DNA of 64,000 nt, from NCBI RefSeq assembly GCF_003334335.1, contig NZ_QOWQ01000012.1; one strand, written 5' to 3'. Origin of the DNA: Escherichia coli. GTDB taxonomy: Bacteria > Pseudomonadota > Gammaproteobacteria > Enterobacterales > Enterobacteriaceae. A program made the position numbers and the translations under genes. Shown here piece after piece: positions 19,256 to 62,425 of this stretch. Under the pieces are notes generated by a model that did no database searches, was not told the DNA's origin, and saw nothing but the letters and a program-made list of their open reading frames with translations. Each line of letters begins with the position of its first letter. Position 1 is the stretch's first letter.

Positions 19256-19474
19256 TTAGCGAATAAATTTCCATACTGAGGAAGGGATCTTGTCGTACAG
19301 TTTATTCATGGTCAATTCGGCGAGGCGGTGATCTGCGGCTGAGTAAAATACCGCCAGTTCATTATCTGATAATTCGTATTTATTTTTCTCGATAACACGC
19401 TCCAGCGTGTCAATTGTCTGGCAACGACGTAAACGCATTAAATAATCGGTTTTCGTTAAAGGTTTTTCGGACAT
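19256..19474 (-). CDS. hha: Hemolysin expression-modulating protein Hha (H-NS co-regulator)
   Basis: Track ORF 154 aa is over-extended; ATG at 19474 gives 72 aa [72 protein letters not shown]. Confidence 0.9.
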
Positions 19475-19499: not shown

Positions 19500-19874
19500 C
19501 TAACAAGATAAACTCGCAGGATTCTCTTTCGTCGCATTGACAAAACAACGGAATAGTCGATTACCTGACTTCCGCCATTTCTGAAGATCCTGCATATTAA
19601 TACCATAACTACTGAACAACATAAAGGTGTCATCCAGATATTCGTCGATCTGCTCAATGAGCTTATTGTCTTCATTATACTTAATTTTGTAATTAAGTGC
19701 GAAGGTCGCAATATGCTCAATCAGTTCATTCAACTGGAGGTTGATCGCCGAGGTTGGGTCGTTTACCCAGCCATGATTGCTTTCTTCAAGGTTTGCAAGG
19801 CAGTCATGATACAGGGTTTCACAGAGAAACTTAAGCTGTGCGATATCATGTCTTTTGGGTGAGTATTCATCCAT
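19500..19874 (-). CDS. tomB: Hha toxicity modulator TomB (YbaJ)
   Basis: 124 aa; [40 protein letters not shown]...; immediately upstream of and co-oriented with hha. Confidence 0.85.
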
Positions 19875-20375
19875 AACGCGTCCCCTTCTTAGCGGTTGAA
19901 CTAACGGACACCTTTCGGGATGGAAAAAACTTACTGACCTGGACTTGCCCTCTCGTTTGTTAGCTTAACTATAAGCCACTCTTTGCAGGTTTTCATCGCA
20001 TTATTACGAAAAATTACAATTAGGAAGGAAGCGGGACAGGACTCATTTTTTCATACTAGCACTAACCCGCAGCAGGTAAAAGCAGTTTGCTCGAACTATT
20101 CATAACATTTCAGGATTATCGCCAGATGAAATTGGTGACACTAATACCAGGATTGCTCTGAATATGACGTAATAACCGAGGAATGAATAAAGAATTACCG
20201 CAAATAATTAAGAATAGCCTCTAAATGATTATGGATTATTAAATCTATTAGCGCTACTTAATATAAATTAACTAACAATCAGTATTTTTTATGAATTTTA
20301 TCCGTGGTTAATACTGGTTTTCGTATGAGATCCTGAGTTGGTGGTTCAATTACTCCTTAATGTTCGTAGGTTATG

Positions 20376-20402
20376 CATAAAAAAGGCCGCTTACGCGGCC
20401 TT
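20376..20402 (-). terminator. Rho-independent terminator after acrB
   Basis: Hairpin aaggccgc-ttac-gcggcctt preceded on the + strand by an A-run (T-run on the minus strand) just downstream of the acrB stop. Confidence 0.75.
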
Positions 20403-20419
20403 AGTGATTACACGTTGTA

Positions 20420-23572
<3,153 letters not shown>

Positions 23573-58931: not shown

Positions 58932-59585
58932 CTTAAGAAGTCCGTCGGTCAGGGGGAGCATGAACTCTCCATCCTCACCGGAGTTGAGCTGGTTGTCAAA
59001 CGTGGCGAGACCATCGCACTGGTGGGCGAGTCGGGATCGGGTAAGTCAACCTTGCTGGCGATCCTCGCCGGGCTTGATGACGGCAGCAGTGGCGAAGTGA
59101 GTCTGGTGGGACAACCGCTACATAATATGGACGAAGAAGCGCGGGCAAAGTTGCGCGCGAAGCACGTCGGCTTTGTTTTTCAGTCATTTATGTTAATTCC
59201 TACCCTTAACGCGCTGGAAAACGTCGAGCTTCCGGCTCTGCTGCGCGGTGAGAGTAGCGCGGAAAGTCGTAACGGGGCGAAAGCGTTGCTCGAACAGTTA
59301 GGGCTGGGTAAACGTCTGGATCATCTTCCGGCACAGCTTTCCGGCGGTGAACAGCAACGAGTGGCGCTGGCACGAGCCTTTAATGGTCGACCTGATGTGC
59401 TGTTTGCCGACGAACCCACCGGCAACCTTGACCGCCAGACGGGCGATAAAATTGCCGACCTGCTGTTTTCCCTCAACCGTGAACATGGCACCACGTTGAT
59501 TATGGTGACCCACGACCTGCAACTGGCGGCACGCTGCGACCGCTGCTTACGGCTGGTGAACGGGCAGTTGCAGGAGGAAGCATGA
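58899..59585 (+). CDS. ybbA: ABC transporter ATP-binding protein YbbA
   Basis: 228 aa; MPAENIVEVHHLKKSVGQGEHELSILTGVELVVKRGETIALVGESGSGKST, signature LSGGEQQR; 5' end overlaps the divergent tesA 5' end. Confidence 0.85.
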   Translation: MPAENIVEVHHLKKSVGQGEHELSILTGVELVVKRGETIALVGESGSGKSTLLAILAGLDDGSSGEVSLVGQPLHNMDEEARAKLRAKHVGFVFQSFMLIPTLNALENVELPALLRGESSAESRNGAKALLEQLGLGKRLDHLPAQLSGGEQQRVALARAFNGRPDVLFADEPTGNLDRQTGDKIADLLFSLNREHGTTLIMVTHDLQLAARCDRCLRLVNGQLQEEA

Positions 59586-61996
59586 TTGCACGTTGGTTCT
59601 GGCGCGAATGGCGTTCGCCGTCGCTATTAATTGTCTGGCTGGCGCTAAGCCTGGCGGTGGCCTGCGTGCTGGCGCTGGGCAATATCAGCGATCGCATGGA
59701 GAAGGGCTTAAGCCAGCAAAGCCGTGAGTTTATGGCGGGCGATCGGGCGTTGCGCAGTTCACGCGAAGTGCCGCAAGCGTGGCTGGAGGAAGCGCAAAAG
59801 CGCGGCCTGAAAGTCGGCAAGCAGCTGACTTTCGCCACAATGACCTTTGCAGGCGACACACCGCAGCTGGCGAACGTCAAAGCGGTGGATGATATCTACC
59901 CGATGTATGGCGATCTGCAAACTAATCCCCCTGGCCTGAAACCGCAGGCGGGCAGCGTATTGCTGGCCCCACGCCTGATGGCACTGCTTAACCTGAAAAC
60001 GGGCGACACCATTGACGTGGGCGATGCCACCTTGCGGATTGCCGGAGAAGTGATTCAGGAACCGGATTCCGGTTTTAACCCCTTCCAGATGGCTCCGCGT
60101 CTGATGATGAATCTGGCGGATGTCGATAAAACCGGAGCCGTGCAGCCGGGGAGTCGGGTCACCTGGCGTTATAAATTCGGCGGCAACGAGAACCAGCTCG
60201 ACGGCTATGAGAAATGGTTGTTACCTCAGCTTAAACCCGAACAACGCTGGTACGGTCTGGAACAGGACGAAGGCGCGCTGGGGCGATCGATGGAACGCTC
60301 GCAACAGTTCCTGCTGCTTTCGGCGCTTCTGACCTTGCTGCTGGCAGTGGCAGCGGTGGCGGTAGCGATGAATCATTACTGTCGCAGTCGCTACGATCTG
60401 GTGGCGATCCTCAAAACGCTGGGGGCAGGGCGAGCGCAACTGCGTAAGCTAATCGTCGGTCAGTGGTTGATGGTGCTGACGCTTTCAGCCGTTACCGGTG
60501 GGGCCATAGGCCTGTTGTTCGAAAACGTGTTGATGGTGCTGCTCAAGCCCGTTCTGCCTGCTGCACTACCGCCAGCCAGCCTCTGGCCGTGGCTGTGGGC
60601 GCTTGGCACCATGACGGTCATCTCGCTGCTGGTGGGGCTACGACCATATCGCTTGTTGCTGGCAACGCAGCCTTTACGCGTATTACGTAATGATGTGGTA
60701 GCGAACGTCTGGCCGCTGAAGTTTTATCTGCCGATTGTCAGTGTGGTGGTTGTGCTGCTGCTCGCCGGATTAATGGGTGGCAGCATGCTGCTTTGGGCGG
60801 TGCTGGCGGGCGCGGTAGTACTGGCTTTGCTGTGCGGTGTGCTGGGCTGGATGCTGCTGAATGTACTTCGCCGCATGACGCTGAAATCGCTGCCTCTGCG
60901 CCTGGCGGTTAGCCGCCTGTTACGTCAGCCGTGGTCAACGTTAAGTCAGCTTTCGGCATTTTCGCTCTCCTTTATGCTGCTGGCACTGCTGCTGGTGTTG
61001 CGTGGCGATCTGCTCGACCGCTGGCAGCAGCAGCTACCTCCAGAAAGCCCGAACTACTTTTTAATTAACATCGCCACAGAACAGGTAGCACCGCTAAAAG
61101 CGTTCCTCGCGGAACATCAGATAGTCCCGGAATCGTTTTATCCGGTGGTGCGGGCGCGGCTGACGGCGATTAACGATAAGCCGACAGAAGGTAATGAAGA
61201 TGAGGCGCTTAACCGCGAACTCAATCTTACCTGGCAAAATACGCGGCCCGATCATAATCCGATTGTCGCCGGTAACTGGCCGCCAAAAGCCGATGAAGTG
61301 TCGATGGAAGAGGGGCTGGCGAAACGCTTAAACGTTGCCCTCGGTGATACCGTGACTTTTATGGGCGATACCCAGGAGTTCCGCGCTAAAGTGACCAGCC
61401 TGCGCAAAGTGGACTGGGAAAGTCTGCGGCCTAATTTCTATTTTATTTTCCCTGAAGGGGCATTAGACGGGCAACCGCAGAGCTGGCTTACCAGTTTCCG
61501 CTGGGAGAATGGCAACGGCATGTTGACACAACTCAACCGCCAGTTCCCGACCATTAGCCTGTTAGATATTGGCGCGATTTTAAAACAGGTCGGTCAGGTG
61601 CTGGAGCAGGTAAGTCGGGCGCTGGAAGTGATGGTGGTACTGGTCACCGCCTGCGGTATGTTGCTGTTGCTGGCACAGGTGCAGGTGGGAATGCGTCAGC
61701 GTCATCAGGAGCTGGTGGTGTGGCGCACACTCGGTGCGGGGAAAAAACTGCTGCGTGCCACGTTGTGGTGTGAGTTCGCCATGCTTGGGTTTGTTTCCGG
61801 CCTGGTGGCCGCAATTGGTGCGGAAACGGCGCTGGCAGTGTTGCAGGCGAAAGTGTTTGATTTTCCGTGGGAGCCAGACTGGCGATTGTGGATTGTTCTG
61901 CCGTGCAGCGGAGCGCTGCTGCTGTCGCTTTTCGGCGGCTGGCTGGGTGCGCGACTGGTTAAGGGTAAGGCGCTGTTCAGGCAGTTTGCGGGGTGA
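59582..61996 (+). CDS. ybbP: ABC transporter permease YbbP (FtsX-like)
   Basis: 804 aa; ATG overlaps the ybbA stop (ATGA); N-terminal TM helix, periplasmic domains and two blocks of TM helices typical of FtsX/MacB-type permeases. Confidence 0.85.
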   Translation: MIARWFWREWRSPSLLIVWLALSLAVACVLALGNISDRMEKGLSQQSREFMAGDRALRSSREVPQAWLEEAQKRGLKVGKQLTFATMTFAGDTPQLANVKAVDDIYPMYGDLQTNPPGLKPQAGSVLLAPRLMALLNLKTGDTIDVGDATLRIAGEVIQEPDSGFNPFQMAPRLMMNLADVDKTGAVQPGSRVTWRYKFGGNENQLDGYEKWLLPQLKPEQRWYGLEQDEGALGRSMERSQQFLLLSALLTLLLAVAAVAVAMNHYCRSRYDLVAILKTLGAGRAQLRKLIVGQWLMVLTLSAVTGGAIGLLFENVLMVLLKPVLPAALPPASLWPWLWALGTMTVISLLVGLRPYRLLLATQPLRVLRNDVVANVWPLKFYLPIVSVVVVLLLAGLMGGSMLLWAVLAGAVVLALLCGVLGWMLLNVLRRMTLKSLPLRLAVSRLLRQPWSTLSQLSAFSLSFMLLALLLVLRGDLLDRWQQQLPPESPNYFLINIATEQVAPLKAFLAEHQIVPESFYPVVRARLTAINDKPTEGNEDEALNRELNLTWQNTRPDHNPIVAGNWPPKADEVSMEEGLAKRLNVALGDTVTFMGDTQEFRAKVTSLRKVDWESLRPNFYFIFPEGALDGQPQSWLTSFRWENGNGMLTQLNRQFPTISLLDIGAILKQVGQVLEQVSRALEVMVVLVTACGMLLLLAQVQVGMRQRHQELVVWRTLGAGKKLLRATLWCEFAMLGFVSGLVAAIGAETALAVLQAKVFDFPWEPDWRLWIVLPCSGALLLSLFGGWLGARLVKGKALFRQFAG

Positions 61997-62011
61997 TGAG
62001 AGTAAATAAGG

Positions 62012-62042
62012 GGCGTTCTGGTTGAATGGAACGCCTTGTTTA
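62012..62042 (+). terminator. Candidate terminator after ybbP
   Basis: Hairpin ggcgttc-tggttgaatg-gaacgcc followed by TTGTTTAAATT. Confidence 0.6.
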
Positions 62043-62425
62043 AATTAATTCTACAATATGTTTCATTGATGATGTTATTGAATTGGTGATTTCCTATCTT
62101 TCTATTGCTGATATTAATCTGAATCGGTGGAGTTTATTGATTTTAAATATAGCCCTACAAAAATAACTCAGACTAATAAAATCATAAATCATATGCGTTG
62201 AATGGATATTATCCATATAGTGAATTTGTTGATGATGAATTCATCTGTGCTAAAAATGTTAGTTTAATAAAATATTGAAAGTGACCTGTAATAACAGTTG
62301 TTGTTGATTGAGAACAAATAAGTTTATGTGAAAAATATATAAATACATTAGCTGGTCTTGTGTGTCATTTTATTTTTTTTGTTGCTAACACAGGGATATG
62401 AACAATAACTAAAAGGGCACTTTAT

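What the first reader, a model, noticed from the sequence alone, without database searches (positions are those of the whole stretch)
62040..62425. Sharp compositional boundary: strongly AT-rich 385-bp leader abutting the GC-rich Rhs core
The segment between the ybbP terminator and the rhsD ATG is visibly very AT-rich (long runs of A/T, few G/C), whereas the Rhs ORF that follows is strongly GC-biased. This pattern is typical of horizontally acquired loci with H-NS-type silencing. It matters here because Hha and TomB, which co-regulate with H-NS, are encoded in the same window.
Basis: partly seen in the sequence, partly recalled or inferred. Interest (0 to 1): 0.4.

Follow-up and report, generated by a model that had tools for sequence, protein, structure and literature searches.

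The report
AT-rich H-NS-bound leader of rhsD
The very AT-rich 430 bases in front of the E. coli rhsD toxin gene are real and are the sharpest composition break in the window, but they are an already published H-NS-bound "promoter island" at the edge of a known accessory Rhs element, so the finding is ordinary.

Summary
Observation confirmed. Segment 62040-62425 has 26.4% GC. It is the lowest-GC 386-bp stretch in the 64-kb window (mean 52.5%, sd 5.1). The two largest GC steps in the window flank it: -0.33 at 62022 and +0.40 at 62428. The rhsD part that follows is 65.5% GC.

The sequence is the E. coli ybbP-rhsD spacer, and the RhsD fragment is 100% identical to K-12. Genome comparison shows that everything after the ybbP stop codon belongs to an accessory island. 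That includes the terminator hairpin, the leader and rhsD. About 54% of 5,426 complete E. coli genomes carry it.

The H-NS reading is already in the literature. The spacer is one of 78 published "promoter islands" and maps to window 62041-62344. It is scored as H-NS-bound in all three ChIP-chip data sets compiled there. It also carries a SELEX-mapped RpoD site marked as overlapping H-NS.

- hha and tomB lie 42.6 kb away, are not part of this island, and Hha acts in trans, so their presence in the window means nothing for this locus.
- Predicted curvature is average.
- The excess of promoter-like sites follows from base composition alone.

I found no direct evidence that H-NS represses rhsD. 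Verdict: already known, low interest.

The parts
59582..61996 (+). ybbP (ABC transporter permease), the conserved gene next to the island. Its stop codon is the left boundary of the variable segment.
   Evidence: ORF. RefSeq annotation of matching records. Homology with strains lacking rhsD ends at the stop codon.
62010..62047 (+). Intrinsic-terminator-like hairpin (stem-loop 62010-62037) followed by a T-rich tail. It lies inside the island-specific DNA, not in the shared ybbP flank.
   Evidence: -16.1 kcal/mol, z = -3.86. Absent from the empty-site strains A26 and E2348/69. Invariant in 8 strains.
62038..62425 (.). AT-rich leader of rhsD. GC is 26.4% over 62040-62425 and 28.4% over the whole 429-bp spacer 61997-62425. 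It is single-copy and never annotated.
62041..62344 (.). Published 'promoter island' 522099_304 (U00096.2 coordinates) mapped onto the window. Reported as H-NS-bound in all compiled ChIP-chip studies and as foreign by four predictors.
   Evidence: PMC3661553 Table 1. Mapping is my arithmetic and rests in part on recalled facts that no tool checked: that the v3 genome numbering is shifted by +776 from v2, and that rhsD started at 522,485 in v2. The second step, window = L001 + 58165, comes. The segment has 13 -10-like hexamers against a mean of 1.65.
62264..62292 (+). Sigma-70 promoter proposed from genomic SELEX: TTAATA (62264-62269), 17-nt spacer, TGTAAT (62287-62292).
   Evidence: PMC3946193 Table 3. 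The sequence was located by eye. Invariant in 8 strains. No transcription start site data were seen.
62373..62380 (+). Poly-T tract ending 46 nt before the ATG. It is T8 here and T9 in MG1655, and it varies in length among strains.
   Evidence: A (T)9->10 change was reported in an evolved K-12 strain (PMC11541549).
62413..62428 (+). Shine-Dalgarno-like AAGGG (62413-62417) and the rhsD start codon (62426-62428).
   Evidence: Sequence. The start matches the RefSeq annotation.
62426..64000 (+). 5' part of rhsD (GC-rich RHS core, 65.5% GC). It runs off the end of the window.
   Evidence: 100% identical over 524 aa to K-12 RhsD. Full-length K-12 RhsD scores 2787.7 bits on the NCBIfam RHS_core equivalog, cutoff 2000. 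GC.

Best explanation
The segment is the 5' non-coding leader of the RhsD element. This is an accessory island of about 7.3 kb that fills the ybbP-selU (mnmH) gap in roughly half of E. coli strains. The island is a composition mosaic. The leader is about 27% GC. The RHS core is 57-70% GC. The toxin tip, immunity gene and orphan tips are 28-38% GC. The sharp step at 62426 is simply the junction between the first two modules.

The leader starts with its own terminator, which should insulate rhsD from ybbAP read-through. It then offers about 390 bp of TpA-rich A/T DNA that binds both RNA polymerase and H-NS. The likely working model has three steps. RNA polymerase can bind and open at many promoter-like sites, including TTAATA-17-TGTAAT. 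An H-NS (and probably StpA and Hha) filament nucleated on the leader occludes or traps it. As a result rhsD is kept at very low expression under laboratory conditions.

What is shown: the composition, the island boundaries, and the published H-NS and RpoD occupancy. What is inferred: that H-NS occupancy causes repression of rhsD, that the terminator insulates, and that Hha takes part.
For: Composition statistics.

Island boundaries. Homology with rhsD-less strains stops at the ybbP stop codon on the left and at the last codon of selU on the right.

Linkage. The leader is present in 2,907 genomes and the whole ybbP-leader-rhsD junction in 2,859. The leader is single-copy and is not shared with the rhsA, rhsB, rhsC or rhsE leaders.

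Island mosaic. RHS_core equivalog match over aa 1-1258.

Published occupancy:
- PMC3661553 Table 1 lists ybbP/rhsD as a promoter island bound by H-NS in all studies and flagged foreign by GIST and by the Nakamura, Lawrence and Price predictors.
- Its abstract states that the islands bind RNA polymerase and form open complexes but give little or no full-length RNA.
- PMC3946193 lists an RpoD holoenzyme SELEX site in this spacer, marked HNS.
- PMC2935791 describes the GC-rich core and AT-rich tip architecture and lists this position as a conserved rhs locus.
Against: I found no expression data for rhsD in hns mutants, so silencing is inferred from occupancy. No transcription start site was seen for the proposed promoter.

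The density of promoter-like sites is no higher than in shuffles of the same composition (8 observed against 14.4 +/- 4.3; 2 against 1.8). 'Promoter island' may therefore describe composition rather than a designed element.

Wedge-model curvature is average: 53rd percentile, and not above shuffles. The classical curved-DNA rationale for H-NS nucleation is therefore not supported, though the parameters I used were recalled from memory.

The 65% GC core should block H-NS spreading, so repression would have to act at initiation only.
Confidence: 0.8

Rival explanations
1. The leader is just unconstrained spacer DNA. It drifted to high A+T under the GC-to-AT mutation bias, or is left over from the recombination that placed the element. 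H-NS binding would then be a passive consequence of composition with no regulatory role for rhsD.
For: All sequence-level 'signals' reduce to composition. Promoter-like sites are not enriched over shuffles. Curvature is average. The putative 5'UTR has no unusual fold (z = -0.41). There is no Rfam match. The small ORFs are broken by an indel in half of the strains aligned.
Against: The leader is less diverged than the coding DNA on either side (1.1% against 2.5% and 2.8%), and that is in strains picked as the most divergent leader hits. It is the longest and most AT-rich leader of the four full-length K-12 rhs genes. The proposed -35 and -10 hexamers and the terminator are invariant. RNA polymerase holoenzyme binds the spacer in vitro.
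Confidence: 0.15
2. Hha, with TomB, specifically co-silences rhsD, and the genes are linked in the window for that reason.
For: Genome-wide, 72% of H-NS-bound regions overlap Hha-bound regions in E. coli K-12 (PMC3686432). Hha is therefore probably present on this leader too.
Against: hha and tomB lie 42.6 kb away on the other strand. They are outside the variable ybbP-selU segment, which only about 54% of strains carry in this form. Hha binding depends entirely on H-NS/StpA and acts in trans. Hha/YdgT-dependent repression is associated with H-NS coverage of coding sequence (88%) and not with intergenic-only binding (9%), and the rhsD core is 65% GC. The supplementary gene lists that would settle this were not available.
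Confidence: 0.04
3. The leader encodes something of its own, such as a small protein, an sRNA or a structured cis-regulatory 5'UTR.
For: It is 430 bp, well conserved, and unannotated in every genome. Several 21-40 aa ORFs exist.
Against: No Rfam family matches at E <= 1. The 5'UTR fold is no better than shuffles. A 1-nt indel at window 62109 frameshifts the two largest ORFs in 4 of 8 strains. A MITE interrupts the 62202-62267 ORF in one strain. No similar DNA was found in phages or on genuine plasmids.
Confidence: 0.03

Closest known systems
E. coli 'promoter islands' (Panyukov & Ozoline 2013, PMC3661553): 78 AT-rich regions dense in promoter-like sites, bound by RNA polymerase and H-NS, with little transcription, next to horizontally acquired genes
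   Same: This segment is one of the 78 (entry 522099_304, ybbP/rhsD), which I map to window 62041-62344. It shows the same properties here: 26% GC, 13 -10-like hexamers in 386 bp, and a position next to accessory DNA.
   Different: Nothing differs, because it is the same object. My controls add one point: the promoter-like density is what the base composition alone predicts.
Rhs elements of E. coli (Hill and co-workers; Jackson et al. 2009, PMC2935791): GC-rich core, AT-rich C-terminal tip, downstream immunity gene and orphan tips
   Same: The island shows the classic mosaic. RhsD is a full RHS_core equivalog. The position is 'locus 3' of Jackson et al..
   Different: The passages of the Rhs paper I read (PMC2935791) describe the AT-rich 3' tip and not the 5' leader. 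This leader is specific to the rhsD locus and is not homologous to the rhsA, rhsB, rhsC or rhsE leaders. An rhsD-type core elsewhere follows a VgrG-like gene with only a 67-bp spacer.
H-NS xenogeneic silencing of AT-rich promoter regions. Examples recalled from general knowledge: bgl, proU, and SPI-6 T6SS/rhs in Salmonella; the last is cited in PMC7043789
   Same: AT-rich, TpA-rich DNA upstream of a horizontally acquired toxin gene, with H-NS occupancy. IS1 and an IS5-type MITE have inserted in the leader in some strains, as is classically seen at bgl.
   Different: Only the 0.4-kb leader is AT-rich. The 3.8-kb core is far above genome GC, so H-NS cannot coat the gene as it does typical AT-rich islands. 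De-repression in hns mutants is not documented here.

Membership tests
Promoter island / H-NS-bound xenogeneic AT-rich region | A+T content far above the genome average over about 300 bp or more | tested here: met
   26.4% GC against 52.5%. It is the lowest 386-bp window in 64 kb.
Promoter island / H-NS-bound xenogeneic AT-rich region | Exceptional density of promoter-like sites on both strands | tested here: met
   13 -10-like hexamers against a mean of 1.65 (top 0.1%), and 8 promoter-like pairs against 1.73 (top 0.8%). Caveat: this is not above composition-matched shuffles.
Promoter island / H-NS-bound xenogeneic AT-rich region | H-NS occupancy in vivo | not testable with these tools
   Reported in the literature. 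Code 'A' (all ChIP-chip studies) in PMC3661553 Table 1. An HNS mark in genomic SELEX in PMC3946193. I could not inspect the raw binding profiles.
Promoter island / H-NS-bound xenogeneic AT-rich region | Association with horizontally acquired (accessory) genes | tested here: met
   The leader and rhsD are present in about 54% of 5,426 genomes. Empty and alternative sites were characterised.
Promoter island / H-NS-bound xenogeneic AT-rich region | Repression relieved when H-NS is removed | not tested
   I found no rhsD expression data in hns mutants. Supplements were not held.
Rhs element | Large ORF matching the RHS core with YD repeats | tested here: met
   NF041261 RHS_core at 2787.7 bits (cutoff 2000), plus YD repeats and Rhs_assc_core. 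The window fragment is 100% identical to K-12 RhsD.
Rhs element | GC-rich core joined to an AT-rich tip and downstream genes | tested here: met
   In K-12 locus L001 the core is 57-70% GC and drops to 28-38% after about aa 1258. This part lies outside the window.
Intrinsically curved DNA (classical H-NS nucleation site) | Predicted curvature well above the genomic background | tested here: not met
   Mean curvature is at the 53rd percentile of the window. There is one local peak of about 15 degrees per turn at 62333. The segment is not above shuffles. The wedge parameters were recalled from memory, so this result is approximate.
Hha/YdgT-dependent subset of the H-NS regulon | Up-regulated in the hha ydgT mutant, with H-NS signal extending over coding sequence | not testable with these tools
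   The supplementary tables of PMC3686432 are not held. A 65% GC coding sequence makes H-NS spreading unlikely; this is inference.
Structured cis-regulatory RNA or sRNA | Match to a known RNA family, or a fold more stable than shuffles | tested here: not met
   No Rfam match at E <= 1. The 5'UTR fold has z = -0.41.

The most novel reading that the evidence does not exclude
The leader may be a selected, tunable silencing platform rather than passive AT-rich spacer. Three observations allow this reading. It is more conserved than the coding DNA on both sides. It carries a slippage-prone T8/T9/T10 tract 46 nt before the start codon. It recurrently receives IS1 and IS5-type insertions. Homopolymer length changes or IS insertion could then act as heritable switches that release rhsD from H-NS control, as IS insertion does at bgl.
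Probability: 0.08. Interest if true: 0.4.

Novelty: already known. Interest (0 to 1): 0.12.

Why it matters
The finding matters little beyond annotation. It confirms that a reader working from sequence alone can spot a genuine H-NS target from composition. It fixes the left boundary of the RhsD island at the ybbP stop codon. It also shows that the leader and its terminator travel with the island.

The biology is already published: a GC-rich Rhs core with AT-rich flanks, H-NS on the ybbP/rhsD spacer, and the 'promoter island' label. One open point is mildly useful. Nobody appears to have shown that H-NS actually represses rhsD, or under what conditions this vgrG-orphan Rhs toxin is expressed.

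Tried and rejected
- Rfam scan of 61800-62700 at E <= 1: nothing.
- Fold of the putative 5'UTR 62300-62445: z = -0.41, not structured.
- Small ORFs in the leader: the two largest are frameshifted by an indel in 4 of 8 strains, and one is cut by a MITE. Rejected as coding.
- Curvature by a dinucleotide wedge model: average, not above shuffles. Curvature rejected as the distinguishing feature; the parameters were from memory.
- H-NS high-affinity motif TCGATAAATT at up to 2 mismatches: 2 hits in the leader (62131, 62223), against roughly 0.45 expected from the window-wide rate of 74 in 64 kb. That is unremarkable for DNA this AT-rich. Uninformative.
- Promoter scans against shuffles: no enrichment beyond composition.
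- Homology of the leader to other rhs leaders, plasmids and phages: none. The 'plasmid' hits are 1.3-4.8 Mb or non-mobilizable records, which I read as mislabelled chromosomal DNA.
- Genome-contig scan with the conserved rhs start, intended to survey leaders across species: only 2 loci returned. No general survey was possible.
- Supplementary tables for Hha and H-NS ChIP (PMC3686432, PMC3064808): not held.
- Literature search for rhsD expression in hns mutants or under Rho inhibition: nothing specific.

Full report
**1. The observation**

The sequence and the composition profile show a block of A/T-rich DNA between the end of a long ORF at 61996 and an ATG at 62426. A script gave the following figures.

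| Region | GC |
|---|---|
| Segment 62040-62425 | 26.4% |
| Whole window | 52.5% (sd 5.1 for 386-bp windows) |
| Last 2 kb of the upstream gene | 57.3% |
| Downstream ORF to the window end | 65.5% |

This segment is the lowest-GC 386-bp stretch in the whole 64 kb. With adjacent 300-bp windows, the two largest GC steps anywhere in the window are at 62428 (+0.40) and 62022 (-0.33). The next largest is 0.24.

TpA steps (11.2% against 4.2%) and all-A/T hexamers (59 against 6.8) are also in the top 0.1-0.2% of windows.

**2. What the DNA is**

Megablast against 5,426 complete E. coli genomes identifies the region as ybbP, a spacer, then rhsD. The 524-aa fragment in the window is 100% identical to K-12 RhsD. 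Full-length K-12 RhsD passes the NCBIfam RHS_core equivalog at 2787.7 bits, against a cutoff of 2000.

The window differs from MG1655 in the spacer by one T in a homopolymer.

A hairpin at 62010-62037 followed by a T-rich tail is a good intrinsic-terminator candidate (-16.1 kcal/mol, z = -3.86).

**3. The leader belongs to an accessory island**

- Only 2,859 genomes hold the whole junction. In the others the match stops about 100-107 nt into the query, which is at the ybbP stop codon.
- In strain A26, ybbP is followed by 58 bp and then the convergent mnmH/selU gene.
- In EPEC E2348/69 the same site holds a dinQ-like toxin gene and an IS481 element.
- In K-12 the gap holds about 7.3 kb: leader, rhsD, ybbC, ylbH, ybbD, ylbI and ylbG. 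On the right, similarity resumes at the last codon of selU.

The terminator hairpin and the AT-rich leader are therefore island DNA, not native ybbP flank.

A more sensitive search with the leader alone finds it in 2,907 genomes. It is single-copy, at least 95% identical in all but one of those genomes, and never annotated. It is absent from phages, and I read the few 'plasmid' hits as mislabelled chromosomal records.

The leader is not homologous to the leaders of rhsA, rhsB, rhsC or rhsE. Those are shorter and less extreme: 202-242 bp and 35-37% GC for the three full-length genes.

An rhsD-type core on another contig follows a VgrG-like ORF with only a 67-bp spacer. The AT-rich leader is thus a feature of this vgrG-orphan locus and not of the core itself.

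Across the K-12 island the composition is a mosaic:
- leader, 27% GC
- core, 57-70% GC
- tip, immunity gene and orphan tips, 28-38% GC

This is the architecture long described for Rhs elements (PMC2935791).

**4. What is already published about this spacer**

Panyukov and Ozoline (PMC3661553) list 'ybbP(+)/rhsD(+) 522099_304' among 78 'promoter islands'.
- It is flagged foreign by GIST and by the Nakamura, Lawrence and Price predictors.
- Its H-NS code is 'A', meaning bound in the Grainger, Kahramanoglou and Oshima data sets alike.
This conversion rests in part on recalled facts that I did not verify: a +776 shift between the two genome versions, and rhsD starting at 522,485 in the older one.
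- The paper's abstract states that such islands bind RNA polymerase and form open complexes but yield very little full-length RNA.

Shimada et al. (PMC3946193) report an RpoD-holoenzyme SELEX site in the ybbP>rhsD spacer.
- The site is marked as overlapping an H-NS site.
- The best promoter is given as TTAATA-17-TGTAAT, which I locate at 62264-62292.
- Both hexamers are invariant in eight strains.

**5. Controls on the sequence-level rationale**

- The density of promoter-like sites is high relative to the window. It is not higher than in shuffles of the same composition: 8 observed against 14.4 +/- 4.3, and 2 against 1.8 in the tool's own scan.
- A wedge-model curvature calculation puts the segment at the 53rd percentile of the window. 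There is one local peak near 62333, and nothing exceeds shuffles. The parameters were recalled from memory, so the result is approximate.
- Matches to the H-NS motif TCGATAAATT are unremarkable.
- No Rfam family matches.
- The putative 5'UTR is not unusually structured.
- The small ORFs are not conserved.

What distinguishes the leader is plain A/T and TpA richness. From general knowledge, that is what H-NS is now thought to recognise.

**6. Mechanism**

The best-supported model has four parts.
- The island brings a terminator that should stop ybbAP read-through.
- A 390-bp A/T-rich leader follows, on which RNA polymerase and H-NS compete.
- H-NS nucleates on the leader and blocks productive initiation toward rhsD.
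- The 65% GC core limits H-NS spreading, so control would act at initiation only.

Occupancy is shown by published data. Repression, insulation and Hha participation are inferred. I found no expression data for rhsD in hns mutants, and the relevant supplementary tables are not held.

**7. The Hha/TomB remark**

hha (19256-19474) and tomB (19500-19874) are indeed in the window, 42.6 kb away on the other strand.
- Hha binds the chromosome only through H-NS/StpA and overlaps 72% of H-NS regions genome-wide (PMC3686432). It is probably on this leader too, but it would be there wherever its gene lay.
- The rhsD island is present in only about half of strains, and hha and tomB lie well outside its boundaries. 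Linkage therefore has no apparent functional meaning.
- The same study ties Hha/YdgT dependence to H-NS coverage of coding sequence (88%) rather than intergenic-only binding (9%). A GC-rich gene such as rhsD does not favour that situation.

**8. Verdict**

The H-NS interpretation is correct as far as occupancy goes, and it is already in the literature for exactly this spacer. The Hha/TomB link is coincidental. Novelty: already known. Interest: low.

Three minor open points remain:
- the unexpectedly low divergence of the leader, 1.1% against 2.5-2.8% in the flanking coding DNA, in 5 strains
- the variable poly-T tract at -46
- IS1 and IS5-type MITE insertions in the leader in some strains

Noticed in passing
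window 62373-62380: Poly-T tract ending 46 nt before the rhsD ATG. It is T8 in the window and several strains, and T9 in MG1655 and H19. A (T)9->10 change at this site is reported in a lab-evolved K-12 strain (PMC11541549). It is a slippage-prone site inside the putative 5'UTR.
   Followed up: partly
window 62346-62355 (L010) and 62250-62253 (L011): Mobile-element insertions in the leader in other strains. A 767-bp IS1 sits about 75 bp upstream of the ATG in ETEC1739. A 109-bp MITE with IS5-type inverted repeats (GGAAGGTGCGAATAAGT) and a CTAA target duplication is present in strain 24AR0357. This recalls IS-mediated activation of H-NS-silenced operons such as bgl.
   Followed up: partly
window 61697-62725 compared with L012-L016: In five strains picked as the most divergent leader hits, the non-coding leader differs by 1.1%. 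The last 300 nt of ybbP differ by 2.5% and the first 300 nt of rhsD by 2.8%. The leader is not evolving faster than its coding flanks. Published work reports the opposite general trend for H-NS-bound regulatory spacers (PMC4720273). The sample is small.
   Followed up: partly
window 19906-20480: The second-lowest GC region of the window (minimum 33% GC) is the tomB-acrB spacer upstream of tomB-hha. It is also marked as H-NS-bound in Shimada et al. 2014, Table 2.
   Followed up: no
L002 4100-5730 (EPEC E2348/69, same ybbP-mnmH site): In place of the Rhs element, this strain carries REP-like repeats, a gene annotated as the dinQ-type type I toxin, and an IS481-family transposase. The ybbP-mnmH gap is therefore a recurrent integration hotspot with alternative cargo.
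   Followed up: no
L009 (JALHET010000378.1, 'Lentisphaerae' MAG): A 3.5-kb contig carries an rhsD-type gene start nearly identical to E. coli, directly after a VgrG-like ORF. This is probably Enterobacteriaceae contamination of the MAG bin. It shows the rhsD-type core in a vgrG-linked context without the AT-rich leader.
   Followed up: partly
window 62109 (alignment A1, column 120): A 1-nt T deletion is shared by four of eight strains, together with linked SNPs at 62131, 62137 and 62139. This defines two leader haplotypes. It frameshifts the two longest small ORFs in the leader.
   Followed up: no
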